Shown: positions 6,686 through 52,034 of the stretch, in pieces | Layout: each line of letters opens with the position of its first letter | Position numbering within the stretch: position 1 is the first letter of the stretch | From: an uncultured Pelagibacteraceae bacterium | Lineage (GTDB): Bacteria; Pseudomonadota; Alphaproteobacteria; Pelagibacterales; AG-422-B15 | DNA: 64,000 bases | Reading direction: 5' to 3' | Assembly: GCA_902571005.1 (NCBI GenBank) | Contig: CACGAG010000009.1 | Coordinates: forward strand, 184 to 64,183 | The notes under the pieces: model-generated | The model's input: the letters and a program-made list of their open reading frames with translations, nothing else | Database searches by the model: none | Told to the model about the DNA's origin: nothing | Program-made: the position numbers and the translations under genes

Positions 6686-6690
6686 GTACG

Positions 6691-7524
6691 TTGTTGAATA
6701 ACATAAAATCCTACGCAAAAATAAATCTTTTCTTAAATGTAGTAAACAAACTTGATACTGGTTTTCACGAATTAAACTCAGTGTTATCAAGGATTGATCT
6801 TTTTGATGAGATTAGAATAAAAGATGAAAGCTCATTTAGTATCTCATATAGTGGCCCTTTTGGAGATCAAGTAGGATCCAATGATAATGTTTCTAAATTA
6901 TTTAACTATTTAATCGATAAGAATTATTTAAAGCAGAAATCATTTGCTATTCAAGTTGTAAAAAATATACCAGTGGGATCGGGTTTAGGTGGCGGTTCAT
7001 CAAATGTCGCAGAAATAATTAAATATTTAATAAGATCCAATTTGTTAGATAATTCAAGCTCAACTGAGATTGCAAGAGATCTTGGGTCAGACATTGAATT
7101 TTTTATTGATGAGGGATCTGCACTGATTTCTGGAAAAGGGAATGTTGATCAAAGGTTAAAAATCAATTCGGATAAGCATTTTCTAATTGTATTTCCAAAT
7201 GTTCAAAATAGTACTAAGGAAATTTTTAATAAACACTCTAATTTAAGTGGAGAAAAATTCTCATACAATAACGATACTAACTTAGATAGAATTTTAAAAG
7301 GTACATCAAATGAATTGGAAAAAACGGCACTTCTTGCAAATCAAGAAATGAAAAAAATAAGAGAATATTTAGAAAATGATATAAATTGTAAGTATGAACG
7401 AATGACAGGAAGTGGCTCTGCATATTTTACTGTTTATGAAGATAAACAAAAGGCAGAGGAAGCAATACAGAGGATATCTGAAGAACACCCCAATTGGTGG
7501 ACATATTTAACGAGGTTAATATAA
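6691..7524 (+). CDS. ispE: 4-diphosphocytidyl-2-C-methyl-D-erythritol kinase
   Basis: AKINLFL, GFHEL, KNIPVGSGLGGGSSN, LGSD, MTGSGS GHMP kinase motifs; TTG start. Confidence 0.93.
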   Translation: MLNNIKSYAKINLFLNVVNKLDTGFHELNSVLSRIDLFDEIRIKDESSFSISYSGPFGDQVGSNDNVSKLFNYLIDKNYLKQKSFAIQVVKNIPVGSGLGGGSSNVAEIIKYLIRSNLLDNSSSTEIARDLGSDIEFFIDEGSALISGKGNVDQRLKINSDKHFLIVFPNVQNSTKEIFNKHSNLSGEKFSYNNDTNLDRILKGTSNELEKTALLANQEMKKIREYLENDINCKYERMTGSGSAYFTVYEDKQKAEEAIQRISEEHPNWWTYLTRLI

Positions 7525-7567
7525 AGATTGCAAAATCTTTTTCTTAAATTAAATAATTATATAGCGT

Positions 7568-7642
7568 TGGGGCGTGGCCAAGCGGTAAGGCACCGCTTTT
7601 TGGTAGCGGCATTCGGAGGTTCGAATCCTCCCGCCCCAGCCA
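7568..7642 (+). tRNA. tRNA-Gln(UUG)
   Basis: TGGGGCG acceptor pairing with CGCCCCA-GCCA, D arm GCCAAGCGGTAAGGC, anticodon stem CCGCT/AGCGG with TTG, T loop GGTTCGAATCC. Confidence 0.96.
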
Positions 7643-7657
7643 ATTAGGATTAAAAAT

Positions 7658-8209
7658 ATGAGTAATTTTTTAAGTAAGTATAAATCAGTATACGATGTCT
7701 TTTTAGACAACTGGGGCTATCAGAAACATTATGTGGCTTATTTAGAGTCTCTAATGAGACAAGAAACACTATTACCAACACACATTAAAGAGATGATATT
7801 CGCCTATGTCTCAGGATTAAATGGCTGTGGGTACTGCAAGAATATTCATGTTGAAATATCAAAGAAAATTTTAAGAGACAAGAATGACCTAGATTTTATG
7901 AATGATATTGAACAATCACAAATAGAAGCTAAGTATAAGCCAATTCTAAAATTATCTCACAAAGTAAATGAAGACATTCGCTCAATTACTGAAGAAGATG
8001 TAACTGCTATATTAGAATATGGCTTTGATGAAAAAGTTATATCCGAAATTATCTCTATTTGTTCTGCTGCACAATTTATGAATACCACAGTTGTTGCTCA
8101 TCAAATAAAGCCTCTTGATCAAGTTCAAAATGTTGCATCAGCGAAAATGATGATTGAGAAAGGTTACGATGGGCTTGCTGAATTTATGTTAAGAAGACGT
8201 AATAAATAA
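7658..8209 (+). CDS. AhpD/carboxymuconolactone decarboxylase-like peroxidase-related protein
   Basis: EMIFAYVSGLNGCGYCKNIH CxxC motif typical of the AhpD-like family. Confidence 0.8.
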   Translation: MSNFLSKYKSVYDVFLDNWGYQKHYVAYLESLMRQETLLPTHIKEMIFAYVSGLNGCGYCKNIHVEISKKILRDKNDLDFMNDIEQSQIEAKYKPILKLSHKVNEDIRSITEEDVTAILEYGFDEKVISEIISICSAAQFMNTTVVAHQIKPLDQVQNVASAKMMIEKGYDGLAEFMLRRRNK

Positions 8210-8210
8210 T

Positions 8211-8585
8211 TTAAAAAAATTTGAATAAACTTAGCCCAAGATAAAAAGCTATAACCGTAAATGTGAATGTCACAAACAGATATAAAAGTGAGGCTAAAAT
8301 TTCTCCGTTGTTGAATAATTGATAAAAATCCAAATTAAAAGTTGAAAAGGTCGTGAAACCTCCGAGGAAACCAATAGTTAAAAACATTTTTATATTTTGA
8401 GATACATTAACTTTGTCTACAAAATAACTAACGACTAATCCCATCAAAAATGCCCCAAGAACATTGACAACTATTGTTCCAAATGGAAATGAACTTAAAA
8501 ATAATCGATCAGTCTGTTCACTGATAAGAAAACGCAATAAAGCTCCGACGCCTCCACCTAAAAAAATGGATAACAAAATACTCAT
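8211..8585 (-). CDS. crcB: Fluoride channel CrcB/Fluc
   Basis: GGGVGALLRF, FPFGTIVVN, GFLGGFTTFSTF signature; 4 TM segments. Confidence 0.95.
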   Translation of the reverse strand: MSILLSIFLGGGVGALLRFLISEQTDRLFLSSFPFGTIVVNVLGAFLMGLVVSYFVDKVNVSQNIKMFLTIGFLGGFTTFSTFNLDFYQLFNNGEILASLLYLFVTFTFTVIAFYLGLSLFKFF

Positions 8586-9427
8586 CAGTTCATACCCACC
8601 AAATGAGCCAATAATCCAAAGTGATCGCTTGGAAAAAATTTATTTTTTTTTGTACCGACAAGGTTGCACTCAATTGGATGACCCAGACCATTAGGTCCAG
8701 GTTTACCCAAAAATATATAATCAATTCGTCGATTATATTCTAAAGTTTTTTTTGCCCAATCATTGCTGTTTGACCAAGTGTAACCAGGATCGTTTCTATT
8801 TGTTAATTTCCATACATCTCTTAAAACGATATCGTTTACCGGCTTAGTTAAACCAGTAATCTTTCTTATTTCATCACTTTCAGGATCAGCATTGAAATCT
8901 CCACACAAAATTATGGGGAATTTTGATGGTTCTAATTTACTAATGTATTCTAATATTTGATTTACTTGATCTTCTCTTACTTGTTGGTGTTCATATTTAT
9001 AATTAAGGTGGGTGCAAATAACGTTAATCGTTTCACTTTTGTATTTTAATGAAAGATGAAGCAAAAATCTTTTTTCATCTTTCTCTGCTTTAGTCTTAAA
9101 CATTACAGTATGGTGAGAATTGATTGGGAATTTAGTAATGATTGCATTTCCAAACGCAACACCATCAAATTCAAATGATTTTTCAAAGATATAGTTATAC
9201 CCAAGTTGATCTGCAATTATTTTAGCCTGACTTTCATCAGTTTCTTCCCACACTTCTTGTAGACACAAAATATCTGGACAAGAATTATTGATTTCAGAAA
9301 TGATTAGATTTTCTCGTTCCTTATAGTTTTCAAATTTCCACCATATGTTCCAGGTTAAAAGCTTAATTATATCAGTATTTAAATCAATTGAACTTGCATC
9401 TGGATCAGGAAATGATTTATCACTCAT
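8585..9427 (-). CDS. Endonuclease/exonuclease/phosphatase (EEP) family protein
   Basis: TWNIW, LQEV, GNAI, THL, CGDFNA, RIDYIF, SDH catalytic motifs. Confidence 0.88.
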   Translation of the reverse strand: MSDKSFPDPDASSIDLNTDIIKLLTWNIWWKFENYKERENLIISEINNSCPDILCLQEVWEETDESQAKIIADQLGYNYIFEKSFEFDGVAFGNAIITKFPINSHHTVMFKTKAEKDEKRFLLHLSLKYKSETINVICTHLNYKYEHQQVREDQVNQILEYISKLEPSKFPIILCGDFNADPESDEIRKITGLTKPVNDIVLRDVWKLTNRNDPGYTWSNSNDWAKKTLEYNRRIDYIFLGKPGPNGLGHPIECNLVGTKKNKFFPSDHFGLLAHLVGMN

Positions 9428-9429
9428 TT

Positions 9430-9885
9430 TTAAGGAAAAGCTACCATGATTTGTTCTGCAACATACGCTGGTTTGTCTTGTCCTTCAATTTCGAGAGTAG
9501 CCTCACTGATTACCTGCGTTCCACCATTATCTAATTTGTTTACCTCTTTGATTTTTATTCCCATTCTCACACGGGAATTAACTGGAACCATATTAATAAA
9601 CCTTACTTTATTTAAGCCATAATTAATCATCATTTTAGCCCCTGTAACTGTCCATATTTTACCAGCCAACGGTACTGATAGAGAAAGGCTTAAGAAGCCA
9701 TGAGCAATTGTGCTTTTAGTAGGAAGTTCTTTTTGAGCTTTTTCTTCATTAACATGTATCCACTGATGGTCACCAGTTGCATCGGCAAATAAATTTATTC
9801 TATCCTGATCAATTGACATCCAATCTGAATGCCCCATATCTTTACCTTTATAATTTTCTAAATCCTTTACATCCACACTTTGCAT
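9430..9885 (-). CDS. MaoC-family dehydratase
   Basis: FADATGDHQWIHV, TIAHGFLSLS, NYGLNKVRF. Confidence 0.92.
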   Translation of the reverse strand: MQSVDVKDLENYKGKDMGHSDWMSIDQDRINLFADATGDHQWIHVNEEKAQKELPTKSTIAHGFLSLSLSVPLAGKIWTVTGAKMMINYGLNKVRFINMVPVNSRVRMGIKIKEVNKLDNGGTQVISEATLEIEGQDKPAYVAEQIMVAFP

Positions 9886-10001
9886 AGTAAATCTCCAAAA
9901 TAATTAAATATATCTTGAGAATATTATCTAATTAAAAAGATTATTGAAGTTTTATAATGAAAAATATTGATAAATCCATTAATTATGAATTCAAGTAAAG
10001 C

Positions 10002-10583
10002 ATGAACGATAATCCAGTAAATTTAAAAGGACTAGAAACAATTTATAGTTTCAGTAAGAAAAATAAGCAATCACTGCCACCTGTAGAAAAATGGAACCCT
10101 CCATTTTGTGGTGATATTGACATGAAGATTTTAAGAAATGGAAAGTGGTTTTACATGGGCTCTGAAATAAAAAGACCTGCGATGGTTAAACTTTTTTCAA
10201 GCATCTTAAGATTAGATGAAGATGCATGCTATTATCTAGTTACGCCCGTTGAGAAAGTTAGAATTCAGGTTGAAGATGCACCGTTTGTTGCTGTGTCTCT
10301 TAATAAAGTTAAGATAAGTAGTAAAACTGGCTATCTATTTAAAACAAACCTCAATGAAGAAATTCTTCTCTCTAAAGATAATCCATTAACAATTAAAATT
10401 GGAGAAAATTCAGAACCTTCACCCTATATTTTGATCAGAAAGAATCTCAATGCACTTTTATCCAGATCAGTTTTTTATGAACTAGTGGACCTTGCAAAGG
10501 AAAAGATAATTAATAATAAAAAATGCTTAGTTATAGAAAGTATGGGTGAAAGTTTCAATATTCATGAAGTTGAAAAAGAATGA
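10002..10583 (+). CDS. DUF1285 family protein
   Basis: LPPVEKWNPPFCGDIDM, YLVTPVEKVRIQVEDAPF; usual position upstream of CoA pyrophosphatase and cca. Confidence 0.85.
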   Translation: MNDNPVNLKGLETIYSFSKKNKQSLPPVEKWNPPFCGDIDMKILRNGKWFYMGSEIKRPAMVKLFSSILRLDEDACYYLVTPVEKVRIQVEDAPFVAVSLNKVKISSKTGYLFKTNLNEEILLSKDNPLTIKIGENSEPSPYILIRKNLNALLSRSVFYELVDLAKEKIINNKKCLVIESMGESFNIHEVEKE

Positions 10584-11218
10584 TGCCTTTAGAAAAATTG
10601 AGGGATTTATTTGATGGTCCAGATAAGATATCTCATGAGTATTTTGAAATACTTACAAATGATTTTTTAACAAGACATCATCACCCTCTAGCAAAGGCTG
10701 AAAAAGATAAAGCTAAGCTAAATCCATCAGCTGTACTTGTACCCATATGTTATTCAAATGATGAAGTAAAAATATTATTAACTAAAAGACTGGATAATTT
10801 AAAAGATCATGCGGGGCAAATTAGTTTCCCCGGAGGTAAAATTGAAAAAAATGATACGTCTCCAATAGAAACTGCTTTACGAGAAGCTAACGAAGAAGTT
10901 GGTTTAAGGTCTGGTGATGTAAATGTGCTGGGGAATCTTGATGTATATATAACTGGTACAGGATTTAGGATCATGCCAATTGTATCTATAGTTTCTGATT
11001 ACTCTTATCTAAAGGCTAATCAAAATGAAGTAGATGAAATATTTTTTCTCCCCTTAGAATTCTTAATGGACTCAAATAATCATAAGAAAGAAAGTGCAAC
11101 ATATGAGGTAAACAATAAAATATATGAATACGACTATTATGTTTTACCTTATAAAGGTTATAATATCTGGGGAGCAACTGCTGGAATGTTGATTAATCTT
11201 TATCAAATTTTAAAATAA
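10580..11218 (+). CDS. Nudix CoA pyrophosphatase (NudL/PCD1-like)
   Basis: HAGQISFPGGK, Nudix box TALREANEEVG, IWGATAGML. Confidence 0.92.
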   Translation: MMPLEKLRDLFDGPDKISHEYFEILTNDFLTRHHHPLAKAEKDKAKLNPSAVLVPICYSNDEVKILLTKRLDNLKDHAGQISFPGGKIEKNDTSPIETALREANEEVGLRSGDVNVLGNLDVYITGTGFRIMPIVSIVSDYSYLKANQNEVDEIFFLPLEFLMDSNNHKKESATYEVNNKIYEYDYYVLPYKGYNIWGATAGMLINLYQILK

Positions 11219-11235
11219 TATAAATAATCTGTTTT

Positions 11236-12468
11236 ATGAGTAGATTTTCATCAATCCTAGAACAAATCGACGTTGCGCAAGTTTTTGGTCTTTTTGAAAC
11301 CTATCAAAAAAATAGTATTTTTGTTGTAGGAGGTGCTATCAGAGACGCACTTTTAAATAGGGAAATCACAGATATTGATTTTGCCACTTCCTTGGAGCCA
11401 AAAACTATTACTGAAATACTCAATAAAGAAAATATTAAATTTATTGATGTAGGAATAAATCATGGAACGGTTACAGCAATAATTAATGAAAGAAAGTTTG
11501 AAATTACAACTTTTAGAAACGATATTTTTACTGATGGAAGACATGCTCAAGTATCATTCTCAAATAGTTTAGAGAAAGATGCATTAAGGAGAGATTTTAC
11601 CATAAATGCAATGTATTTAGATAAGAGTGGAAATTTAATAGACCCTACAGATGGTAAAAAAGATTTAGAAAATAGAGTCGTTCGTTTCATAGGAAAGCCT
11701 GATGAAAGAATAAAAGAAGATTACCTTAGAATACTTAGGTATTTTCGTTTTTTAGCATTATTTGGCAATATATCCCCTGACGCAGAGGTGATGAAAACAA
11801 TTTCAGCTAATCTTGATAAGTTATCAGTTGTTTCTAAGGAAAGGCAATGGCATGAACTAAAGTCAATACTAAGTCTAACTGCGCCAAATAATGCAATTTC
11901 TGCAATGAGTGAAATTGGTTTATTTGATGATTATTTTAATGGCACTGGCATAAATGATGCATTTGTAAATTTAATTGAAATAGAAAATAAAATATCTTTT
12001 TCAATTGATCCAATATTGAGATTAAGTACTTTAATCGAAAACTCATTGGATAAAGCAAACACTATCATAAAAAAATTACCTTTATCAAAATCAGAATCTA
12101 CTGACTTATTGAAATTATGCACATTAAATAAAAAAGTCGTCTCTTACATGTCAATGAAGGAAGTTAGATATTTACTTTATCTATTAGGCCGTGACGGTTT
12201 TCAAAAACAAATACTTGTTACTTGGGCTAAGGATGCAAATAATAAAAATGAAGTAAACTGGAGATCTCTATATGAAGTCGCTCAAAGCTGGGAGAAGCCA
12301 TCTTTTGCTTTAACAGCCAAAGATGTAATAAACATGGGAATATCTCAGGGCCCAATGGTTGGAGACATTTTAAAAGAGGTTGAAGACTGGTGGGCAGAAA
12401 ATGATTTTATTGATGATAAATTTTCATTAATTGAAAGACTTAAAGCAATCGTCCAATCAAAAAAATAA
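11236..12468 (+). CDS. cca: CCA tRNA nucleotidyltransferase
   Basis: VGGAIRDALL, DIDFAT, EITTFR, DALRRDFTINA, EDYLRILRYFRF. Confidence 0.9.
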   Translation: MSRFSSILEQIDVAQVFGLFETYQKNSIFVVGGAIRDALLNREITDIDFATSLEPKTITEILNKENIKFIDVGINHGTVTAIINERKFEITTFRNDIFTDGRHAQVSFSNSLEKDALRRDFTINAMYLDKSGNLIDPTDGKKDLENRVVRFIGKPDERIKEDYLRILRYFRFLALFGNISPDAEVMKTISANLDKLSVVSKERQWHELKSILSLTAPNNAISAMSEIGLFDDYFNGTGINDAFVNLIEIENKISFSIDPILRLSTLIENSLDKANTIIKKLPLSKSESTDLLKLCTLNKKVVSYMSMKEVRYLLYLLGRDGFQKQILVTWAKDANNKNEVNWRSLYEVAQSWEKPSFALTAKDVINMGISQGPMVGDILKEVEDWWAENDFIDDKFSLIERLKAIVQSKK

Positions 12469-12474
12469 TTTTTT

Positions 12475-12954
12475 TTATTTATATAAAATTTTCTTAATCT
12501 CGTAGTTTTTCTCTCCTTTTGGTGTTGAAACTGATACGAAATCACCTTTTTCTTTGCCAATTAGAGCTTTTGCAACAGGGGATCGGTAAGACAACAGTCC
12601 CGATTCAATATCTGCTTCATCGTCGCCAACAATTTGAAACTTTGTCTTTGTATCATTATCAATATCTTCAACTTCAACAGTTGCTCCAAAGACAACGGTT
12701 TTTTGATTTTTAGGAATATTTGAAATATCTATGATTTCTGCATTTGATAGTAGTAATTGAATTTCCTGAATACGACCCTCAATGTGTCCTTGCTCCTCTT
12801 TTGCTGCATGGTACTCAGCGTTTTCCTTTAAATCACCATGCTCTCTTGCTTCGGCAATGGCTTGAATTACTTTTTGTCTTTTATTATTTACCAAATCGCT
12901 TAACTCATCTTGAAGTTTTTTTGCGCCATTTGATGTAATTGGTTCAGTTTCCAT
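12475..12954 (-). CDS. greA: Transcription elongation factor GreA
   Basis: AREHGDLKENAEYHAAKEEQ, SPVAKALIGK; start set at ATG 12954 to avoid overlapping hemF. Confidence 0.96.
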   Translation of the reverse strand: METEPITSNGAKKLQDELSDLVNNKRQKVIQAIAEAREHGDLKENAEYHAAKEEQGHIEGRIQEIQLLLSNAEIIDISNIPKNQKTVVFGATVEVEDIDNDTKTKFQIVGDDEADIESGLLSYRSPVAKALIGKEKGDFVSVSTPKGEKNYEIKKILYK

Positions 12955-12956
12955 TT

Positions 12957-13760
12957 TTATTTCCACTTTGCATTAGGGGGCATTGACATTAAAATTGCAT
13001 CAATATTACCGCCGGTGTTCAAACCAAATTTTGTTCCTCGATCGTATAAAAGATTATATTCTACGTATCTTCCACGTTTCAATAACTGAATTTCTTTATC
13101 TTTTTTTGTGAACTTTTCGTTCATTTTTTGGCTTATAATTTCTCTTACAATATCATTAAATGTTACGCCAACGTCCTTAACAAAATCAAAATCTTTTTTC
13201 CAGTTATCCATTTTATAGTCAAAAAATATTCCGCCAATACCTCTTATTTCTTTTCTGTGAGGTAAATAGAAATATTCATCACACCATTTTTTATACTTTT
13301 TGTAATAAGATTTATTATGATTTTCACACATTATTTTTAATTTAGTGTGAAATTGTTTCTTTAATATAGTGTCATTAAAACATGGAGTAGCGTCAATACC
13401 GCCACCAAACCAATTTTTACCTGTTATTATATGCCGAGTATTGAAATGTAATGCAGGAACTTTTGGATTTGCCGGGTGAAGTACTACAGATACTCCCGAT
13501 GACCAAAATCTTTTATCCTTTTCAGTTCCCGGAATTTGTTTTGCAAATTCTTTTGGAAAAGTACCTGTTACATTTGAAAATGCTATACCACCTTTTTCGA
13601 TTACATTTCCCTTAATTATTCTATATTCACCTTTTTTCCATTTATTAGCTTTGAATTTTGCTTTTGATCCATTTTCTTTTTCGAGTTCATGAACAGTTTC
13701 ACAGATTAAATTCTGTAATTCCTTAAACCATGCTTTTGTTATCTTTTTTTTATTTAACAT
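12957..13760 (-). CDS. hemF: Oxygen-dependent coproporphyrinogen III oxidase
   Basis: EKGGIAFS, HFNTR, WFGGGIDATP, CDEYFYLPHR, RGIGGIFFD, RGRYVEYNLLYDRGT. Confidence 0.95.
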   Translation of the reverse strand: MLNKKKITKAWFKELQNLICETVHELEKENGSKAKFKANKWKKGEYRIIKGNVIEKGGIAFSNVTGTFPKEFAKQIPGTEKDKRFWSSGVSVVLHPANPKVPALHFNTRHIITGKNWFGGGIDATPCFNDTILKKQFHTKLKIMCENHNKSYYKKYKKWCDEYFYLPHRKEIRGIGGIFFDYKMDNWKKDFDFVKDVGVTFNDIVREIISQKMNEKFTKKDKEIQLLKRGRYVEYNLLYDRGTKFGLNTGGNIDAILMSMPPNAKWK

Positions 13761-13761
13761 T

Positions 13762-14205
13762 TTAAAATAGTTTTAACTGTCTGTTTGCCTCAGAAATAAC
13801 TATAGCTGAAGACACTGCAACATTTAAAGATCTTGCCGAACTGTTCATTGGTATTCTTATTATTTGGTCAGATTGTTTGTGAACGTAATCTGGTACTCCC
13901 GCACTTTCTCTTCCAACAATTAAATTATCAGTATCCTTAAATTCAAAATCATAGTGACTAAGTTTACCTTTTGTAGACAGCAGTATTTTTCTTCCTTTTC
14001 TATTTTTTTTGTAGTGTTTCCAATCGTCAAACTCTGTTAAATTAATATTTTTACCATAGTCCATTGCAACTCTGCTAAGAGATTTTTCCGACATTGCAAA
14101 AGAAGCTGGATGGATGATATCAATATTGACATCGAAACAAGAGCAAATCCTCACCATTGCTCCAGTATTTTGAGGTATATCAGGTTCGAAAATTGCTAAG
14201 TTCAT
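13762..14205 (-). CDS. trmL: tRNA (cytidine/uridine-34 2'-O)-methyltransferase TrmL
   Basis: PDIPQNTG, GRESAGVP, RSLNVAVS SPOUT motifs. Confidence 0.92.
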   Translation of the reverse strand: MNLAIFEPDIPQNTGAMVRICSCFDVNIDIIHPASFAMSEKSLSRVAMDYGKNINLTEFDDWKHYKKNRKGRKILLSTKGKLSHYDFEFKDTDNLIVGRESAGVPDYVHKQSDQIIRIPMNSSARSLNVAVSSAIVISEANRQLKLF

Positions 14206-14241
14206 TTGATAAATATTTTATAACTTTTTGATCCTAATATA

Positions 14242-14258
14242 TGCGTCATCATGACACA
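14242..14258. promoter_or_regulatory. Candidate RegA/PrrA/RegR-type binding site upstream of petABC
   Basis: TGCGTCA-TCA-TGACACA: near-perfect inverted repeat with 3-nt spacer, GC-rich within an AT-rich spacer, about 84 bp before petA. Confidence 0.45.
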
Positions 14259-14341
14259 ATTTTTTGCGCCTCTAATTGCCTTTTTCCCTTAAAAAACGAA
14301 GATTTACAAGTATATTAGCAATATAACTCTAGGATATTAAG

Positions 14342-14851
14342 TTGTCAGAAAAACAAGTTACAAGAAGAAATTTTCTTTATGTCACTACAGGTGCATTTGC
14401 AGCTGCGGGAGCGGCTTCATTGGCATGGCCTTTCGTTGATCAAATGAATCCTGATGCATCAGTCAAAGCGTTAGCATCTACTGAAATTGATCTCAGACCT
14501 ATAATACCTGGGCAGAGCATCACTGTAATGTGGAGGGGTAAACCCGTATTTATTCGAAGGCGAACACAGGCTGAAATTGACGAAGCAAAGACAGTTAATT
14601 TAGCTGATTTGCCCCACCCAGAAGCAGATAGTGATCGAGCACAAAATCCTGAGTGGCTTGTTATGGTTGGTATTTGCACCCATCTTGGTTGTGTTCCACT
14701 TGGGCAGAAAGGTGATTACAATGGATGGTTCTGCCCATGTCATGGTTCTCATTATGATACTTCAGGTAGGATAAGAAAGGGACCTGCACCTACAAATCTT
14801 GAGATTCCGGATTATGTATTTTTAAATGAAACTACTATAAAAATTGGATAA
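14342..14851 (+). CDS. petA: Cytochrome bc1 Rieske iron-sulfur subunit
   Basis: Tat signal TRRNFL, CTHLGC and CPCHGS, GPAP; TTG start. Confidence 0.97.
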
Positions 14852-46877: not shown

Positions 46878-48893
46878 ATGAAGAAAAGAGGTAGAAAAAA
46901 AAAGCAGGTCAAAGCTGAAGTTGAAAGCTTACAGTCGCAATCAAATGATCAAGATGGTCCTGTCTTAGATCTAGAAAAATCAATAATAAAAAAACTTATT
47001 AAGCAAGGTAAAAAAGACGGTTATCTCACCCACGAATTAATTAAAAAATCTTTTCCTGAAGACAAATTTACCTCTGAACAGATTGAACAATATACAACGA
47101 AGCTGTCTCAAGTTGGATTTGATATTATTGATTCTGACGATTCAGATAATGATGAAGATAAAGATGACGAGTCACCTTCAGTAAAAGCAGGGACAGAAAA
47201 AACAGATGATCCAGTTAAATTATATCTCAGAGAAATGGGAACAGTTGATCTACTATCTCGTGAGGGCGAAATTGCGATAGCTAAACGAATTGAAGCTGGC
47301 CAAGAAGCAATGATTTCTGGACTCTGTGAAAGTCCACTCACGCTGCAGGCGATACTTGATTGGAGAGATGATATAATTGCTGAAAAAATAACATTAAGAG
47401 AAGTTATTGATCTTGAGTCACTGTTTGAGGAGTCCCCAAATAAAAAGGAGCTGAGCAAAAAAATAAAAGAAGCAAAAAAAAGAAAAGAACAAGAAGAAAA
47501 AGAAGAAATTAGAAAAAGAAAAGAGGCTGAAAAAAAATCTTCTACTTATGGTGATGATACGGAGCCAATGATTGAAACTACCTCAGATCAAGTAATTGAG
47601 GAATACGAAGATGCTGATGATGAATTAAATGTTTCAATTGCAATAATGGAAGAAGAGCTCAAGCCTCAGATCCTTGAAACATTTAAAAAATTAAATAAAA
47701 GTTTTAAAAAGCTACAAAAGCTCCAAAAGGATAAAATTGCATTTCAGGAAAAGGGTAAAGAATTTCCTTCAAGATCTGAAAAAAGCTATCAGACTTCAAA
47801 GGCTGTTGTTGTTGAATTGATTAAAGGCTTGCAAATAAATACAAATAAAATTGAAGAATTAATTAACAAGTTATACATAATTAATAAAGGAATTGTATCT
47901 CTGGAAGGTAAATTATTAAGACTTGCAGTCCAATATAAAATTTCAAGAGACGAATTCTTGGATAAATACATCGGAAATGAGAATAATCCTTATTGGTTAA
48001 GAAAGATTACCAGACTTTCTGGATGGGAAAAATTTGTCAAAGAGGAAAAAAATAATATTAAAAATATTATGAACGAGGTAAGAGCTGCTGCAAGTAATAT
48101 AGGTTTAACACTTAATGAGTTTAAAAGAATTGTAAGCAATGTTCAAAAAGGTGAGAGAGAATCAAGTATTGCTAAAAAAGAAATGATTGAAGCCAACCTA
48201 AGATTAGTAATTTCTATCGCAAAAAAATATACGAATAGAGGTCTACAATTTTTAGACTTAATACAAGAGGGTAATATCGGCTTAATGAAAGCGGTAGATA
48301 AATTTGAATATAGACGAGGTTACAAATTTTCAACTTATGCAACTTGGTGGATCAGGCAGGCAATTACTAGATCAATAGCGGACCAAGCTAGAACTATTCG
48401 TATACCAGTACATATGATAGAAACAATCAATAAGATTGTAAGAACACAAAGGTTGCTTTTAAATGAAATAGGAAGGGAGCCAACTCCTGAAGAAATATCT
48501 ACAAAATTAAATATGCCTCTTGAGAAAGTCAGAAAAGTTTTAAAAATTGCAAAAGAGCCTGTAAGCCTTGAAACTCCAGTTGGCGATGAAGAAGACAGTC
48601 ACTTAGGTGACTTTATACAAGATGAGAATGCCGTTATTCCAATCGATGCAGCGATTCACTCTAATTTGAGGCAAACTACTACCAAAATATTATCGTCATT
48701 AACACCTCGTGAGGAAAGAGTATTGAGAATGAGATTTGGTATTGGTATGAATTCTGACCATACTCTTGAAGAAGTTGGACAACAATTTTCAGTTACGAGG
48801 GAGAGAATTAGACAGATTGAAGCAAAAGCGCTGAGAAAACTAAAGCATCCAACTCGAGCAAAGCTTTTAAAAAGCTTTTTAGATAAAAACTAG
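46878..48893 (+). CDS. rpoD: RNA polymerase primary sigma factor RpoD
   Basis: [42 protein letters not shown], region 4 [28 protein letters not shown]. Confidence 0.98.
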
Positions 48894-48894
48894 T

Positions 48895-48923
48895 TTGTAA
48901 GGCTACAATTCTCTGTGTATAAA
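48895..48923 (+). promoter_or_regulatory. Candidate sigma70 promoter of the tRNA(CAU)
   Basis: TTGTAA (48895-48900), 17-bp spacer, TATAAA (48918-48923), 10 nt before the tRNA. Confidence 0.5.
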
Positions 48924-48933
48924 AGTTTTATAA

Positions 48934-49010
48934 GGGCCCATAGCTCAGTTGGTTAGAGCCCTCCGCTCATAACGGAGTTGTCCTAGGTTCGAGTCCTAGT
49001 GGGCCCACCA
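48934..49010 (+). tRNA. tRNA with CAU anticodon, most likely tRNA-Ile2 (lysidine type)
   Basis: GGGCCCA/TGGGCCC acceptor + ACCA, D arm GCTCAGTTGGTTAGAGC, anticodon stem CTCCG/CGGAG with loop CTCATAA, T arm CTAGG-TTCGAGT-CCTAG. Ile2 rather than Met is inferred from the C4-G69 acceptor stem and the post-rpoD location. Confidence 0.92.
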
Positions 49011-49068
49011 AGTAATACAATGACTTACGAGTCATAATTCCCATTTCTACCTTTCGAAATCAAGCTGC

Positions 49069-49086
49069 GCAGTCATTGTGCAGTCA
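49069..49086 (+). repeat. Paired direct repeat GCAGTCA-TTGT-GCAGTCA (left arm of cassette 1)
   Basis: Copies start at 49069 and 49080, 11-bp period. Confidence 0.8.
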
Positions 49087-49196
49087 TTTTAGTGAAGTTT
49101 TTATAAAATAGTGCTTATAAGGTCTTTAGTTACTATCAATTAAAATAAAACAATTTGACCTCTTTGATAATATAAATTCTTAAGTATTATTTTAAT

Positions 49197-49982
49197 ATGA
49201 GAATTTTTATAATGCTAATTTTTGCTTTAACTTTAGTCAGTTGCTCTAATCCAGAATTAGATCTTTACTATCAGAAAGAAGAAAGCATCCGGGAAGTTAC
49301 GAGAGTGCTTATAGATACTCCGGAGCACAAAGAATATCCCACAATCTTTTGTAATCAATTTGCTGCCCTTCAACTTGCAAAAGATCATTGTGACAATCTC
49401 GGTTATGATGTATTTAAAACAAATCGTGAGCCGAAAGATAGTAATACTAATTTAACCCATATTGGAAAAATTGAATTGTATTGTGGTATTCCTCACCCCA
49501 ATGCAGACATTGATAAACCTAGTGAATTAGAAAGAAGAAAAAATCTCTGTGAATTAGATATAGCTGGTAAAAAAATGGTCGAAGAATGGAAGAAAAGGGA
49601 TGCAGACGCAAGAATAAATTCTTGTAAAGAGATAGGTTTTGAGGAAAACACTTTAGATATGTCACATTGTTTACTTAAAATTATAGAATTAGAAACAATT
49701 TTAAAATTGAATAACTCTAAGAATACAAAAATTGTAATTCCAAATGAACAAAAGGGTAGAGGAAATCAGTTTAACTGGGCAGCTTTTATAACGGGACTTA
49801 ATCAATTAAATAATTCTCTGTATGGAAGCACTAACACTACATCCTCTACAAGCACAACATGTTATAGCACTGGCGAATATATAGAAGGAATGAACAAAGT
49901 CTGCCAATACAGTTGTGTTGGCAGCGCGCATGCAATCACTGTGGGTGCAGCACAAATATGTCCTATTAGTGTTAAACGTTAG
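49197..49982 (+). CDS. Hypothetical Cys-rich lipoprotein (cassette 1 cargo)
   Basis: Hydrophobic signal with lipobox LVSC (Cys16), 11 Cys in total, Thr/Ser linker, C-terminal 4-Cys module; no family recognised. Confidence 0.75.
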   Translation: MRIFIMLIFALTLVSCSNPELDLYYQKEESIREVTRVLIDTPEHKEYPTIFCNQFAALQLAKDHCDNLGYDVFKTNREPKDSNTNLTHIGKIELYCGIPHPNADIDKPSELERRKNLCELDIAGKKMVEEWKKRDADARINSCKEIGFEENTLDMSHCLLKIIELETILKLNNSKNTKIVIPNEQKGRGNQFNWAAFITGLNQLNNSLYGSTNTTSSTSTTCYSTGEYIEGMNKVCQYSCVGSAHAITVGAAQICPISVKR

Positions 49983-50010
49983 CAATACGCACAAATTTTA
50001 AACAATTATT

Positions 50011-50028
50011 GCAGTCGTTACGCAGTCA
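50011..50028 (+). repeat. Paired direct repeat GCAGTCG-TTAC-GCAGTCA (right arm of cassette 1)
   Basis: Copies start at 50011 and 50022; followed by TTT like the left arm. Confidence 0.8.
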
Positions 50029-50128
50029 TTTGGTTAGAAATTTTCTAAATTGTTTCTAAGTTGTATTATAAAAAATAGGTAATAATAACAATTATAAGCG
50101 TAGCTATTGCTTAATGGATGACTTACCA

Positions 50129-50175
50129 CGCTCATAACGGAGTTGTCCTAGGTTCGAGTCCTAGTGGGCCCACCA
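50129..50175 (+). repeat. tRNA(CAU) 3'-half direct repeat, copy 2 (att site)
   Basis: CGCTCATAACGGAGTTGTCCTAGGTTCGAGTCCTAGTGGGCCCACCA is identical to 48964-49010 (47 bp). Confidence 0.97.
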
Positions 50176-50222
50176 CGTTTTTCAACGTTTATTCATTCAT
50201 ACACTTTCTGAAAATTGTTCCT

Positions 50223-50240
50223 GCAGGCCATCTGCAGTCA
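50223..50240 (+). repeat. Paired direct repeat GCAGGCC-ATCT-GCAGTCA (left arm of cassette 2)
   Basis: Copies start at 50223 and 50234, 11-bp period. Confidence 0.8.
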
Positions 50241-50279
50241 ATGACTTTAATAATTGTGGTTTGTAGGATATAATTTTGT

Positions 50280-50909
50280 ATGAGATTAATTGCTGTAACA
50301 TTTTTTGTAATTATGTTTATGCAACCTCTCGCAAATGCAAGTGCCAGTTTATCAACAGATGGTTTTTACGATTTTCCAACACGAACGTGTACTGCAATTG
50401 GTGGAGATCAAGATGAACTAGACACAATATGTAGAAACATACCTAGAGATTCATTATGTAACGATAAGTGGTGGAAACAAAAAAACTGTTATTTATTAGC
50501 TGCTGAAACAAATGCGTTTAGATATGATGTAAACGGAGATCTTCTAGGCATAGATTTATGGAGAATTGATGATCATATTGGATTCGAGGAGACGCTAATA
50601 ATACTTCCTATATTTTTAATTATCATCAGTATTGTGGGCTTTTTTATAATAAGAAAGTTATTAAGAGTATTTTTCAAAAAATCAAGTGAACTATATCAAT
50701 CTAGCTCATTACCGTTAAAAAATAAATTGGCAAAAAGAAAAGTAGAAACTGAATTACGTGATTTAGATGAAGTAAAGCCTGCTGAACAGAATTATCAGAA
50801 GGCATCATTTAAAGACAATACTGAGGAAATAGAACAAATAAATAAACTTGAAAGAAAAATTAAAATTAAAGAGCTTGAAAAAAAACTTAAGTCAATTGAT
50901 GATGAATAG
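50280..50909 (+). CDS. Hypothetical bitopic membrane protein (cassette 2 cargo)
   Basis: Signal peptide ending ANA, 4-Cys exported domain, TM TLIILPIFLIIISIVGFFII, charged coiled-coil-like cytoplasmic tail. Confidence 0.75.
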   Translation: MRLIAVTFFVIMFMQPLANASASLSTDGFYDFPTRTCTAIGGDQDELDTICRNIPRDSLCNDKWWKQKNCYLLAAETNAFRYDVNGDLLGIDLWRIDDHIGFEETLIILPIFLIIISIVGFFIIRKLLRVFFKKSSELYQSSSLPLKNKLAKRKVETELRDLDEVKPAEQNYQKASFKDNTEEIEQINKLERKIKIKELEKKLKSIDDE

Positions 50910-50996
50910 TTTCAAAAATAGTTAATCGTGATTCAGGATTCAAGTTTGTATGATTCTAAATGGGTTCTAATAAATATTCCCCTGAACATTACTCTC

Positions 50997-51015
50997 GCAG
51001 GCCATCTGCAGGCCA
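50997..51015 (+). repeat. Paired direct repeat GCAGGCCA-TCT-GCAGGCCA (right arm of cassette 2)
   Basis: Copies start at 50997 and 51008; 15 bp (GCAGGCCATCTGCAG) identical to the left arm. Confidence 0.82.
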
Positions 51016-51085
51016 AAGCTCTTAAAACTAAACATTTACAGACTAAAATTTCTTACATACCCTAGCTTAAAGGTTAAGGCTCACA

Positions 51086-51131
51086 GCTCATAACGGAGTT
51101 GTCCTAGGTTCGAGTCCTAGTGGGCCCACCA
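51086..51131 (+). repeat. tRNA(CAU) 3'-half direct repeat, copy 3 (outermost attR)
   Basis: GCTCATAACGGAGTTGTCCTAGGTTCGAGTCCTAGTGGGCCCACCA is identical to 48965-49010 (46 bp). Confidence 0.97.
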
Positions 51132-51164
51132 AAAAAGATAAATTTTATCCCTTATATCTTTTTT
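51131..51164 (+). terminator. Hairpin after the last tRNA fragment, probably the original tRNA terminator
   Basis: AAAAAAGATA (51131-51140) and TATCTTTTTT (51155-51164) form a 10-bp inverted repeat ending in a T run; AT-rich and weak. Confidence 0.45.
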
Positions 51165-51185
51165 AACTTATTCTATAATTTAATT

Positions 51186-52034
51186 ATGTCTTTAAATGTA
51201 GTCGCCTCAGAACAGGCCTGTGGTGCAGAAATAACAGGAATTGACCTAAAAAAAGATTTATCTGAGAGTCAAATTTCTGAAATAAGAAATCATTGGCTTA
51301 AACATCACATACTGAGTTTTCCCAACCAAGCTTTATCTGACGATGATCTAGAACGTTTCACTCTTTATTTTGGATCATTTGGAGATGACCCATTTATTGC
51401 CTCAATACCAGGCAGAGAAAATATTATTGCAGTTAAAAGAACGGCAGATGAAAAGGTACCAATTTTTGCAGACAATTGGCATACTGATTGGAGTTTTCAA
51501 AAAAATCCACCAGCAGGTACGTGTTTATTTGGAAAAATAATTCCATCAGAAGGGGGTGATACGTTGTTTGCAAACCAACATTTAGCATTAGAGTGCATGC
51601 CCTTCGAATTAAGGAAAAAGTTGGAGGGGAAAAAAGCAATTCACTCAGCACTTGTACCTTACTCACCAGGGGGTGGTTACGGTGATAAGGATAGAGAAAT
51701 GGGAAGAAGCATGGATATAAGAGCGTCAGACGATGCTTTTGCTCAACAAATACATCCTATTATTAAAAGTCATCCTGAAACAAATAAAGAGGGTATTTAT
51801 GGTACAGTTGGTTATATCATTGGCATTGATGGTATGGATAACCAGGAAGCTATGAAATTACTTATGGAATTGAGCGCATGGCAGTGTAAAGAAGAATTTG
51901 TTTACCGTCACAAATGGAAAAAGGATATGTTAATTATGTGGGACAATAGAAGTGTTCTACACCGAGCAACTGGCGGTTATGAAGGGCAAGAACGTCTTTT
52001 ACATCGAACAACCATTGCAGCTTATGGCTTATAA
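51186..52034 (+). CDS. TauD/TfdA-family alpha-ketoglutarate-dependent dioxygenase
   Basis: WHTDWS (HxD), GGDTLFAN, WDNRSVLHRA; start reassigned to ATG 51186 because the ORF-track start at 51120 lies inside the tRNA fragment. Confidence 0.92.
   Translation: MSLNVVASEQACGAEITGIDLKKDLSESQISEIRNHWLKHHILSFPNQALSDDDLERFTLYFGSFGDDPFIASIPGRENIIAVKRTADEKVPIFADNWHTDWSFQKNPPAGTCLFGKIIPSEGGDTLFANQHLALECMPFELRKKLEGKKAIHSALVPYSPGGGYGDKDREMGRSMDIRASDDAFAQQIHPIIKSHPETNKEGIYGTVGYIIGIDGMDNQEAMKLLMELSAWQCKEEFVYRHKWKKDMLIMWDNRSVLHRATGGYEGQERLLHRTTIAAYGL

What the first reader, a model, noticed from the sequence alone, without database searches (positions are those of the whole stretch)
48934..51164. tRNA-anchored array of integrase-less single-gene cassettes
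Seen: one intact tRNA(CAU) followed by two exact copies of its 3' half (47 and 46 bp) at 50129 and 51086. They cut the region into units of 1165 and 956 bp, each with one ORF and paired arm-like repeats near both ends. No integrase, excisionase, relaxase or replication gene lies inside or elsewhere in the window. Known: tyrosine integrases regenerate tRNA genes on insertion and leave 3' fragments as attR, but such islands normally encode their integrase and are much larger. Inference: these are minimal non-autonomous elements stacked one after another by an integrase supplied in trans. That would be an integron-like system in which the tRNA half acts as the recombination site and the newest cassette sits next to the tRNA.
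Basis: partly seen in the sequence, partly recalled or inferred. Interest (0 to 1): 0.92.

Follow-up and report, generated by a model that had tools for sequence, protein, structure and literature searches.

The report
Integrase-less gene cassettes at a SAR11 tRNA
Behind one tRNA gene of an ocean SAR11 bacterium sit two tiny one-gene mobile cassettes that keep the full docking site of a 9.5-kb integrase-carrying DNA circle but have no integrase themselves, which shows how a bacterium thought to be almost free of mobile DNA swaps single genes.

Summary
tRNA(CAU) at 48934-49010 is followed by exact copies of its last 47 and 46 nt. These bound two units of 1165 and 956 bp, each with one exported-protein gene.

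Among 47 genomes of the same genus, the rpoD-tRNA-TauD site is empty in at least 9. In others it holds one to three or more cassettes of 193-3577 bp, with different cargo even in close relatives. None carries an integrase. One cassette is 98% identical between species whose rpoD flank is only 79% identical.

Every cassette has the layout of an attP site opened around its cargo. It has a P' arm, the cargo, a P arm, and then a core that starts at the anticodon loop. A doubled 11-bp-period word lies on both arms. It usually matches within a cassette and usually differs from the neighbouring cassette.

A circularly assembled 9.55-kb Tara contig encodes a tyrosine integrase and a primase-helicase. 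Its attP has the same core (44 of 46 nt), the same P' arm type, and a doubled word at the same distances. A truncated integrase of that family is the fourth unit of the array in metagenome contigs that carry this window's two cassettes.

The trans-mobilisation reading is supported but not demonstrated. tRNA-anchored additive islands and tycheposon-like elements are already published, so this is a new variant of a known kind.

The parts
48934..49010 (+). Intact tRNA(CAU), the chromosomal attachment site. ARAGORN calls it Met. The acceptor stem (C4:G69, C5:G68) and an antisense match to a plastid trnI-CAU-linked Rfam model hint at tRNA-Ile2.
   Evidence: The Ile2 assignment is inference from knowledge and was not tested.
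48966..49010 (+). Core copy 1 (45-nt minimal identity block), running from the first base of the anticodon loop to CCA. The crossover is inferred to lie in the anticodon loop.
   Evidence: The identity boundary is the same across 29 cassettes.
49011..49110 (+). P' arm of cassette 1 (L1 type). It has the inverted repeat ATGACTTACGAGTCAT at 49020-49035, TTTCGAAA at 49052-49059, and the doubled word GCAGTCAT at 49069 and 49080.
   Evidence: It is 82.7% identical over 98 nt to the attP of integrase element L093.
49197..49982 (+). Cargo of cassette 1: a 261-aa lipoprotein-type exported protein with a Cys-rich C-terminal module. It has no Pfam family and only 6 homologues in 5.8 billion proteins.
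50005..50130 (+). P arm of cassette 1, with the doubled word GCAGTC(G/A)T at 50011 and 50022, centred about 114 bp upstream of the next anticodon loop.
50129..50175 (+). Core copy 2, a 47-nt exact copy of the tRNA 3' part. It joins the P arm of cassette 1 to the P' arm of cassette 2.
50176..50279 (+). P' arm of cassette 2 (not L1 type), with the doubled word CTGCAGGCCAT/CTGCAGTC at 50221-50239, centred about 96 bp downstream of the anticodon loop. A promoter-like site lies at 50247-50274.
50280..50909 (+). Cargo of cassette 2: a 209-aa protein with a signal peptide, a Cys-containing exported domain, one transmembrane helix and a charged tail. It reaches no Pfam family cut-off.
   Evidence: The identical protein occurs on 7 metagenome contigs.
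50990..51086 (+). P arm of cassette 2 (the common class A). It has the doubled word GCAGGCC at 50997 and 51008, a conserved TTTACAG..AAAATTT stretch, and a degenerate copy of the tRNA 5' half.
   Evidence: Rfam gives a weak tRNA hit at 51063-51120 (23 bits).
51086..51131 (+). Core copy 3, a 46-nt exact copy at the distal end of the array. In the integration model this is the original chromosomal tRNA 3' part.
   Evidence: The model step is inference.
51186..52034 (+). TauD-family dioxygenase, the conserved right flank. It follows the tRNA within about 50 nt in genomes with an empty site.
46878..48893 (+). rpoD, the conserved left flank.

Best explanation
The two units are non-autonomous integrative cassettes. 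Each is an attP site (P arm, 45-46-nt tRNA core, P' arm) opened around a single cargo gene.

Inferred mechanism: a cassette circle recombines with the tRNA(CAU) gene through a tyrosine integrase. The crossover lies in the anticodon loop, so the tRNA is rebuilt from the cassette's own 3' part. The previous 3' part is pushed downstream. Repeated insertions stack cassettes, with the oldest lying distal.

Inferred source of the enzyme: the integrase is not encoded by the cassettes or by this genome. It comes from rare ~9.5-kb elements of the same family that carry a 337-aa integrase and a primase-helicase. The integrase's N-terminal domain would read the doubled 11-bp-period words on both arms.

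Shown here: the anatomy of the cassettes, presence/absence polymorphism at the site, horizontal transfer of cassettes, and an attP shared with a circular integrase element.

Not shown: cassette circles, present-day mobility, and which integrase reads the GCAGTC and GCAGGCC words of this window.
For: Site polymorphism and turnover:
- Among the same-genus genomes that carry this tRNA, at least nine have the tRNA directly followed by TauD, and others carry one to three or more cassettes.
- The five genomes closest to the window (92-96% identity in the rpoD flank) each hold different cassettes or none.

Horizontal transfer:
- Cassette L039_c1 versus L045_c1 is 98.3% identical over 786 bp, while the adjacent rpoD flank is 79.5% identical.
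- Cassette L035_c1 versus L038_c1 is 99.5% identical, against 91.6% for the flank.

Modular, conserved ends around unrelated cargo:
- P' arm types and P arm classes recur around different cargo genes.
- A 193-bp cassette (L036_c1) has both arms and no cargo.

Doubled arm words:
- The doubled words sit 96-110 bp downstream and 83-94 bp (up to 120 bp) upstream of the anticodon loop.
- They agree between the two ends of a cassette in 12 of 13 informative cases.
- They differ across the core between neighbouring cassettes in 4 of 5 cases.

The doubled word is an integrase signature:
- All 8 exact IMG/VR matches to GTGCGGGATNTGTGCGGGA (7 contigs) lie within about 150 nt of the end of a PF00589 integrase gene.

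The integrase element:
- L093 has a 37-nt terminal overlap, giving a circle of 9552 bp.
- Its order is Prim-Pol/helicase, P arm with doubled GTCGTAA, the 46-nt core, an L1-type P' arm with doubled GTCGTA, then a 337-aa integrase (PF00589 75 bits; phrog_1 191 bits).
- The same integrase lies on an independent 9607-bp contig.
- The integrase-less cassette L088_c1 shares 96.4% over 194-196 nt with L093's P arm plus core, and 86-87% with its P' arm. The cargo shows no homology to L093.

Integrase remnant in the same array:
- Tara contigs carrying the window's two cassettes continue with a third cassette and then a unit that starts with the first ~80 codons of an integrase of this family.
- That stub is 62.5% identical to the L093 integrase, and 53% identical over 43 aa (E 4e-11) to an IMG/VR integrase.
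Against: - No intact integrase of this family occurs in the window's genome or in any of 47 genus genomes. Only XerC/XerD occur, plus two unrelated elements.
- The integrase that was found uses the arm word GTCGTAA, not GCAGTC or GCAGGCC.
- No circular cassette junction was seen. The short contigs that hold only cassette 2 are explained by assembly breaks at the repeats.
- One cassette has discordant arm words (L094_c1).
- Some cassettes are fusions or have lost att copies. Decay and homologous recombination therefore also shape the array.
- The N-terminal domain is not recognised by Pfam. Its arm-binding role rests on homology to the N-termini of integrases and on position.
Confidence: 0.72

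Rival explanations
1. The units are dead scars. Complete integrase elements inserted repeatedly and lost everything except their arms and one gene. Present-day differences between strains then arise only by RecA-dependent recombination and deletion between the repeated cores and conserved flanks. No integrase acts on them now.
For: - A truncated integrase lies in the same array in sister strains, with different DNA downstream in two contigs.
- Distal core copies decay (L084, L085, L046, L036).
- Some cassettes are fused.
- No integrase occurs in 47 genus genomes.
- SAR11 is known for high homologous recombination (general knowledge; the theme also appears in PMC11796062).
Against: - All three core copies in the window are exact, and both arms of each cassette keep their doubled words.
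- Arm words match within cassettes rather than across neighbours, which implies selection on the circular attP form.
- A 98%-identical cassette sits in species with 79%-identical flanks and different downstream DNA. Its end points therefore fall inside the 46-77-nt identical blocks.
- Cargo genes show no homology to the helper element, so simple internal deletion does not produce them.
- A cargo-less 193-bp unit persists.
Confidence: 0.22
2. The host XerC/XerD pair, or an integron-type integrase, moves the cassettes. The array would then be an IMEX-like or integron-like platform.
For: XerC and XerD are the only tyrosine recombinases in the genome.
Against: - The site is a tRNA anticodon arm with lambda/P4-style arm words about 100 bp away on both sides, not a dif-like site.
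- No integron integrase reaches its cut-off. The Xer proteins score far below the integron integrase models.
- Rfam finds nothing but tRNA-like matches in the region.
- An element with a dedicated arm-type integrase and the same attP exists.
Confidence: 0.03
3. The repeats are an assembly or amplification artefact of a single-cell genome.
For: The genome is a fragmented single-cell-type assembly of 23 contigs.
Against: The same two cassettes appear in the same order, at 99.7-100% identity, in independent Tara, ENA and NCBI metagenome assemblies. Analogous arrays occur in many other genomes.
Confidence: 0.01

Closest known systems
Additive flexible genomic islands marked by repeated tRNA 3' ends. 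Examples are SAR11 gMED islands with partial tRNA repeats (PMC11796062) and the 'Ca. Methylopumilus' island with recurring copies of the last 20 bp of tRNA-Lys (PMC10872708).
   Same: A tRNA-anchored hotspot with direct repeats of the tRNA 3' part separating inserted gene blocks. Content varies between strains, and usually no mobile-element genes lie inside.
   Different: Those papers report the repeats and infer 'insertion of a gene cassette'. The text I read does not describe the attP arm architecture, the doubled arm words, cargo-less units, or a matching integrase-carrying circle.
Tycheposons of Prochlorococcus (Hackl et al., preprint 10.1101/2020.12.28.424599) and tycheposon-like tyrosine-recombinase elements mapped in Pelagibacter from vesicle and virus-like-particle reads (PMC11876622).
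   Same: Small tRNA-targeting elements with a tyrosine recombinase plus a primase/helicase. Tandem insertions are separated by partial tRNAs, and the newest lies next to the tRNA in the authors' island-growth model. The 9.55-kb L093 element fits this description.
   Different: Tycheposons are defined by carrying their own integrase. Integrase-less material in those islands is described as degenerated remnants or co-transferred DNA. Here the units are 0.2-3.6-kb single-gene cassettes with complete, matched arms. A search of the preprint for 'non-autonomous' and similar terms found nothing.
CIMEs (cis-mobilizable elements) and tandem accretion at att sites of streptococcal ICEs and IMEs (reviewed in PMC5704250; catalogued in ICEberg 2.0, PMC6323972).
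   Same: Elements bounded by att sites that lack their own recombination genes. They sit in tandem with, or are mobilised by, a related integrase-encoding element.
   Different: CIMEs are kilobases long and few per site, and they derive from conjugative elements of Firmicutes. Here the units are minimal (attP plus one gene), numerous and diverse, sit in a tRNA, and are associated with a non-conjugative integrase/primase element.
The 'doubled motif' in attP of helper-embedded PICI satellites (Tommasini, Mageeney & Williams 2023, PMC10111431).
   Same: Two co-oriented copies of a tandemly doubled short word, one on each side of the crossover at fixed distances (81 bp upstream and 132 bp downstream there; about 84-94 bp upstream and 96-110 bp downstream here). 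That paper lists the integrase arm domains as one possible binder.
   Different: A different integrase clade, different words and different targets (prophage late genes rather than a tRNA). In that case the motif belongs to integrase-carrying satellites.
Integron gene cassettes
   Same: Single promoter-poor genes, each with its own recombination site, stacked at one chromosomal position and moved by an integrase they do not encode. Cassette-only arrays exist there too.
   Different: There is no IntI next to the array, no attI and no folded single-stranded attC. The site is a duplex tRNA core with lambda-style arms, and the enzyme comes from a separate mobile element.

Membership tests
tRNA-integrating genomic islands or elements of tyrosine integrases, anticodon-loop sublocation (Williams 2002 classification, from knowledge) | A direct repeat of the tRNA 3' part bounds the insert, and the identity block starts in the anticodon loop and runs to the 3' end. 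| tested here: met
   The 45-nt block CTCATAA...CCA is shared by all copies. Sequences diverge immediately 5' of the loop in every P arm class.
tRNA-integrating genomic islands or elements of tyrosine integrases, anticodon-loop sublocation (Williams 2002 classification, from knowledge) | The element encodes its own tyrosine integrase. | tested here: not met
   No PF00589 hit in the window, in either unit, or in 26 dereplicated cargo proteins. Eighteen of these were scanned directly and none is an integrase.
Non-autonomous att-flanked elements (CIME-like) | Bounded by att sites of a known integrase-encoding element while lacking recombination genes. | tested here: met
   The core and P' arm type are shared with the L093 integrase element. 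Cassette L088_c1 shares 96% of the P arm and 86-87% of the P' arm with it.
Non-autonomous att-flanked elements (CIME-like) | Excision or transfer occurs when the cognate integrase is supplied. | not testable with these tools
This needs an experiment.
Tycheposons | Tyrosine (or serine) recombinase plus a replication module on the element, integrated at a tRNA. | tested here: not met
   The window's units have neither. The related L093 circle has both and would qualify as tycheposon-like.
Integrons | An intI gene with an adjacent attI and Pc promoter at the head of the array. | tested here: not met
   The only tyrosine recombinases are XerD and XerC on other contigs. Integron-integrase models score far below their cut-offs.
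Integrons | attC sites (imperfect palindromes) between cassettes. | tested here: not met
   The junctions are tRNA 3' parts. The Rfam scan of 48700-51300 returns only tRNA-related matches.
Prophage or phage remnant | Phage structural or lysis genes, or remnants of them, inside the units. | tested here: not met
   Each unit holds one ORF with no Pfam family. The backbone has no match in 50,697 phage records, and the 46-mer has none in IMG/VR.

The most novel reading that the evidence does not exclude
SAR11 lineages may run a two-tier gene-capture economy at tRNA genes. Rare ~9.5-kb integrase/primase circles would act as helpers for a large and diverse pool of integrase-less cassettes, each an attP plus one gene. 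The cassettes fall into at least four or five orthogonal classes, each defined by a doubled arm word that co-varies with the integrase N-terminal domain. This would be functionally like an integron but built from a lambda/P4-type recombination system, and it would supply much of the single-gene turnover of cell-envelope functions in these streamlined genomes.
Probability: 0.4. Interest if true: 0.8.

Novelty: new variant of a known kind. Interest (0 to 1): 0.62.

Why it matters
SAR11 is the most abundant bacterial group in the ocean. It is usually described as almost free of mobile elements, yet its pangenome is open. Published work notes partial tRNA repeats in its islands but leaves the mechanism open.

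This locus gives that mechanism a concrete and testable anatomy: a defined 45-nt core, arm words at fixed distances, and a candidate helper element with a named integrase sequence. The cargo also suggests what is being exchanged. It consists of exported lipoproteins, repeat proteins, O-methyltransferases, an O-acyltransferase and a thioesterase, which points to single cell-envelope genes, plausibly under phage or grazer pressure.

If trans-mobilisation holds, it would be an integron-like solution built from a different recombinase system. It would also offer a compact toolkit (core, arms, integrase) for genetic work in organisms that are hard to manipulate.

Tried and rejected
- **Sequencing runs:** No read-level search for circles or empty sites could be made.
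- **IMG/VR, core sequence:** The exact 46-mer gave nothing. A 30-mer gave only phage tRNAs and an attP-like fragment for a different tRNA-Met.
- **INPHARED phages:** The cargo-less backbone gave only tRNA-level matches.
- **GTDB pattern scan:** A pattern for the class A P arm found only three genomes that were already known.
- **Extra integrase hits in the genus:** Two proved to be Xer fragments at contig ends. One is a P4-type element at another site. One lies near tRNA-Gly. None is at this tRNA.
- **Order-wide L1 P' arm search:** In 401 genomes the motif occurred only in this genus and only at this locus.
- **IMG/VR, window arm words:** Scans for GCAGTCA and GCAGGCC gave mostly coding-sequence or unclear hits and were not informative.
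- **Shared 7-mer statistic:** A comparison of 7-mers shared between arms was too noisy in AT-rich DNA to be useful.
- **Exact-protein look-ups:** The cassette 1 cargo and TauD returned nothing.
- **Helper integrase elsewhere:** It has no relative in IMG/VR by the pattern method. Its N-terminal stub has no match in the 47 genus genomes.
- **Short contigs holding only cassette 2:** I considered these as possible circles and rejected that. Their ends lie in the repeated core or continue into neighbouring cassettes.
Full report
**1. What is in the window**

ARAGORN finds a tRNA with anticodon CAU at 48934-49010. Its last 47 and 46 nt recur exactly at 50129-50175 and 51086-51131. The 45-nt block from the first base of the anticodon loop to CCA occurs three times in the window. 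These are also its only three copies in the 1.26-Mb genome, and the control pattern gives none.

The copies delimit units of 1165 and 956 bp. Each unit has one long ORF:
- 49197-49982 encodes a 261-aa lipoprotein-type protein.
- 50280-50909 encodes a 209-aa protein with a signal peptide and one membrane helix.

Neither ORF reaches a Pfam cut-off. The flanks are rpoD upstream and a TauD-family dioxygenase downstream.

The genome's only PF00589 proteins lie on other contigs. NCBIfam identifies them as XerD and XerC.

Record titles of relatives read "uncultured Pelagibacteraceae bacterium AG-...". The organism is therefore a SAR11-clade single-cell-type genome with about 30% G+C.

**2. The site is polymorphic and turns over quickly**

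The 46-mer was sought in 60 relatives. Within the genus, the copy number per genome is 1, 2, 3 or 4. Wider loci were then fetched from 31 genomes.
- At least nine genomes have the tRNA followed by TauD within about 50 nt, which are empty sites (L047, L049, L051, L053, L054, L066, L071, L073 and others).
- The remaining genomes carry one to three cassettes of 193-3577 bp.

The genomes closest to the window by rpoD flank (92-96% identity) carry four different cassette sets or none.

Two cassettes are far more similar between genomes than the adjacent rpoD flank:

| Cassette pair | Cassette identity | rpoD flank identity |
|---|---|---|
| L039_c1 vs L045_c1 | 98.3% over 786 bp | 79.5% |
| L035_c1 vs L038_c1 | 99.5% | 91.6% |

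. The downstream DNA also differs between the partners. These cassettes therefore moved horizontally, with end points inside the tRNA-derived repeats.

Independent metagenome contigs carry the window's two cassettes at 99.7% and 100% identity in the same order, which excludes an assembly artefact.

**3. Each cassette is an attP opened around one gene**

Twenty-nine cassettes were compared.
- **Left ends** fall into a few types. The commonest, L1, reads AATAATTCAATGACTTAGGTCATATATTCCCAACTTTTATCTTTCGAAA. Cassette 1 of the window has it.
- **Right ends** mostly share ...TCTAAAACT..TTTACAGAATAAAATTTGTTACATAACCTAGCTTAAAGGTTAAAGCTCACA, followed by the core. Cassette 2 has this form. It includes a degenerate tRNA 5' half, which Rfam scores as a weak tRNA hit at 51063-51120.

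Between these conserved stretches and the cargo, each arm carries a short word repeated twice, 11 bp apart.

| Cassette | Left arm word | Right arm word |
|---|---|---|
| 1 | GCAGTCAT at 49069 and 49080 | GCAGTC(G/A)T at 50011 and 50022 |
| 2 | CTGCAGGCC / CTGCAGTC at 50221-50239 | GCAGGCC at 50997 and 51008 |

. Other cassettes use GCGGGAT or GTCGT(A/C/G)A.

The word centres lie 96-110 bp downstream of the anticodon loop. Upstream they lie 83-94 bp from it, and 114-120 bp in two cassettes.

Among 13 cassettes with clear words on both arms, 12 have the same word class at both ends; L094_c1 is the exception. Of five informative neighbour pairs, four differ across the shared core. The two ends of one cassette therefore belong together, as they would in a circle where they flank the core.

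One unit, L036_c1, is only 193 bp. It has both arms and no cargo.

Cargo is diverse and mostly envelope-related:
- 4HBT thioesterase
- FkbM and TylF methyltransferases
- Acyl_transf_3 + SGNH O-acyltransferase
- MORN- and Sel1-repeat exported proteins
- several lipoproteins
- a seven-member family of 311-456-aa secreted proteins

None is an integrase.

**4. The doubled words behave as integrase arm sites**

An exact scan of IMG/VR for GTGCGGGATNTGTGCGGGA gave eight matches on seven contigs. All lie within about 150 nt of the start or end of a PF00589 integrase gene. These phages are otherwise unrelated and mostly G+C-rich.

In one of them (L110), the doubled word lies about 95 nt upstream of a tRNA(CAU)-like 3' part that overlaps the end of the integrase gene. 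This is the same geometry as in the cassettes.

A published precedent exists. The "doubled motif" of helper-embedded PICIs lies 81 bp upstream and 132 bp downstream of the attP centre, co-oriented, and is proposed to bind integrase arm domains (PMC10111431).

Scans for the window's own words, GCAGTCA and GCAGGCC, were not informative.

**5. A matching integrase element exists**

It returned more integrase-less arrays (L084, L085, L087-L089, L092, L094, L097) and one different contig, L093, a Tara scaffold of 9589 bp.

L093's first 37 nt equal its last 37 nt, so it assembles as a circle of 9552 bp. Its order is:
1. a 650-aa Prim-Pol + AAA_25/DnaB-like primase-helicase (5271-7223)
2. a P arm with doubled GTCGTAA (7360, 7371)
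3. the 46-nt core (7485-7530), carrying the compensatory T-stem allele CCCAGG/CCTGG that some genus genomes have in their tRNA
4. an L1-type P' arm
5. doubled GTCGTAA/GTCGTAC (7589, 7600)
6. a 337-aa integrase (7623-8636; PF00589 75 bits, phrog_1 191 bits)

.

This is an intact attP flanked on both sides by element genes. It represents the excised circle, a concatemer, or a tandem form of an autonomous element.

The identical integrase lies on an independent ENA contig of 9607 bp. That length equals 9552 + 55. I could not check that contig's ends.

No capsid or terminase family was detected among its ORFs. One of its ORFs is 53% identical to a gene in the window's genome, which is consistent with a SAR11 host.

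The integrase-less cassette L088_c1 (1171 bp, one 245-aa ORF) shares 96.4% over 194-196 nt with L093's P arm and core. It shares 86-87% with L093's P' arm, and its cargo shows no homology to L093. The P' arm of the window's cassette 1 is 82.7% identical over 98 nt to that of L093.

**6. An integrase remnant lies in the same array in sister strains**

Tara and ENA contigs L078, L079 and L141 carry the window's cassettes 1 and 2. They continue with a third cassette (1601 bp, MORN-repeat protein, GCGGGAT words) and then a fourth unit.

After the core and a P' arm with doubled GATC(A/G)CAC, that fourth unit opens with MASIRKLKGKWQAIVRTRGIRTSRVF....
- These ~80 residues are 62.5% identical to the N-terminus of the L093 integrase.
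- They are 53% identical over 43 aa (E 4e-11) to the N-terminus of an IMG/VR integrase flanked by the doubled GTGCGGGAT word.
- In a search of 1.84 billion representatives, they match the first ~80 residues of many 313-375-aa proteins.

The reading frame breaks after about 80 codons and is followed by different DNA in L078 and L079. It is therefore a decayed integrase gene.

The window's genome lacks units 3 and 4 and has no trace of this gene.

**7. How it most likely works**

Shown:
- the anatomy of the cassettes
- the empty and occupied alleles
- horizontal transfer bounded by the core
- within-cassette agreement of the arm words
- an attP shared with a circular integrase/primase element
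- decay of the distal core copies in several arrays (L084, L085, L046, L036)

Inferred:
- A cassette circle recombines with the tRNA through an integrase tetramer that reads the core at the anticodon stem-loop and the doubled words on both arms.
- The tRNA is rebuilt from the cassette-borne 3' part, and the former 3' part moves distally.
- Successive insertions stack cassettes, with the oldest lying distal.
- The enzyme is supplied by a co-resident or transient element of the L093 type.
- The different arm words imply several integrase specificities.
- Excision between any two cores could remove one or more cassettes. This would explain why the window has c1-c2 while sister strains have c1-c2-c3-int remnant.

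Homologous recombination between the repeats, and deletions that fuse cassettes, also occur.

**8. Relation to what is known**

Partial tRNA repeats marking "insertion of a gene cassette" in SAR11 islands that lack mobile-element genes are published (PMC11796062). So are additive islands marked by recurring tRNA 3' ends in Methylopumilus (PMC10872708).

Tycheposons, and tycheposon-like recombinase elements in Pelagibacter, are also published (10.1101/2020.12.28.424599 and PMC11876622). L093 fits that description.

Elements bounded by att sites without recombination genes are known as CIMEs.

I did not find the following described in the texts I read:
- the complete, matched attP arms on minimal single-gene units
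- the word classes
- the cargo-less unit
- the direct sequence link to an integrase circle

Earlier AI notes of this scan report the same pattern at SAR11 tRNA-Thr, -Gly, -Ser and -Leu. I treated them as leads. The link to an integrase element was tested independently here for tRNA(CAU).

**9. Verdict**

Two caveats remain: trans-mobilisation is inferred, and the cognate integrase for the GCAG(T/G)C words is unknown. This is a new variant of a known kind, and I rate interest at about 0.6.

Noticed in passing
own genome contig C4:112846-114253 (outside the window): A second tRNA(CAU), probably elongator Met, is followed by a 1331-bp single-ORF unit. The unit ends in a copy of the tRNA 3' part that starts at the anticodon loop (1 mismatch). 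No L1 arm or doubled word was seen.
   Followed up: partly
L061 (G035:C1) 7070-14841: A rare P4-type element in the same genus. It has an integrase with Arm-DNA-bind_3, an HTH_17 protein and an AEP primase/DUF5906. A doubled GGTGTAAA (11-bp period, 7269/7280) lies between a tRNA/tmRNA-like 3' end and the integrase start.
   Followed up: partly
window 49860-49982; also L044_c2, L078_c3, L084_c3, P0004: Cargo lipoproteins of different cassettes share a C-terminal ~40-aa Cys-rich module (..GMNKVC.Y.C.G..H.IT.GA...CP..VKR) joined to unrelated N-terminal parts. In another SAR11 lineage, a 146-aa protein with this module is fixed between the hydrolase and TauD genes (91 contigs).
   Followed up: partly
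window 49020-49035 and the L1 arms of L036, L069, L088, L092 and L093: An inverted repeat ATGAC-N4-6-GTCAT lies 9-25 nt after CCA. Variants keep the pairing (ATGACTTACGAGTCAT, ATGACCTAGGTCAT, ATGACTTAAGCGTCAT). Its function is unknown.
   Followed up: no
IMG/VR loci L106-L113: The doubled or tripled word GTGCGGGAT sits next to integrase genes of unrelated, mostly high-G+C phages. This suggests a widely shared arm word for one integrase N-domain type.
   Followed up: partly
window 48934-49008, 50100-50173 and 51057-51129, minus strand: Rfam RF04354 (Plastid-ycf2 5' UTR) matches the antisense of all three core regions below its threshold. The likely reason is that the model overlaps plastid trnI-CAU, which hints that this tRNA is tRNA-Ile2.
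   Followed up: no
L037, L044, L045, L067, L070, L072 (between the array and TauD): A block of about 4 kb is present between the tRNA or array and TauD in several genomes and absent in others. It has no tRNA-derived repeat at its far end.
   Followed up: no
L079 4157-4600: A T5orf172/MUG113 (GIY-YIG-like) ORF follows the truncated integrase in one Tara contig. In the sister contig L078, a lipoprotein gene follows instead.
   Followed up: no
L129 (IMG/VR) 12478-12545: The 11-bp unit GCAGGCCATCT, the arm word of cassette 2, is repeated about six times in tandem next to an AAA_5 ATPase gene in a 57% G+C viral contig. Its meaning is unclear.
   Followed up: no
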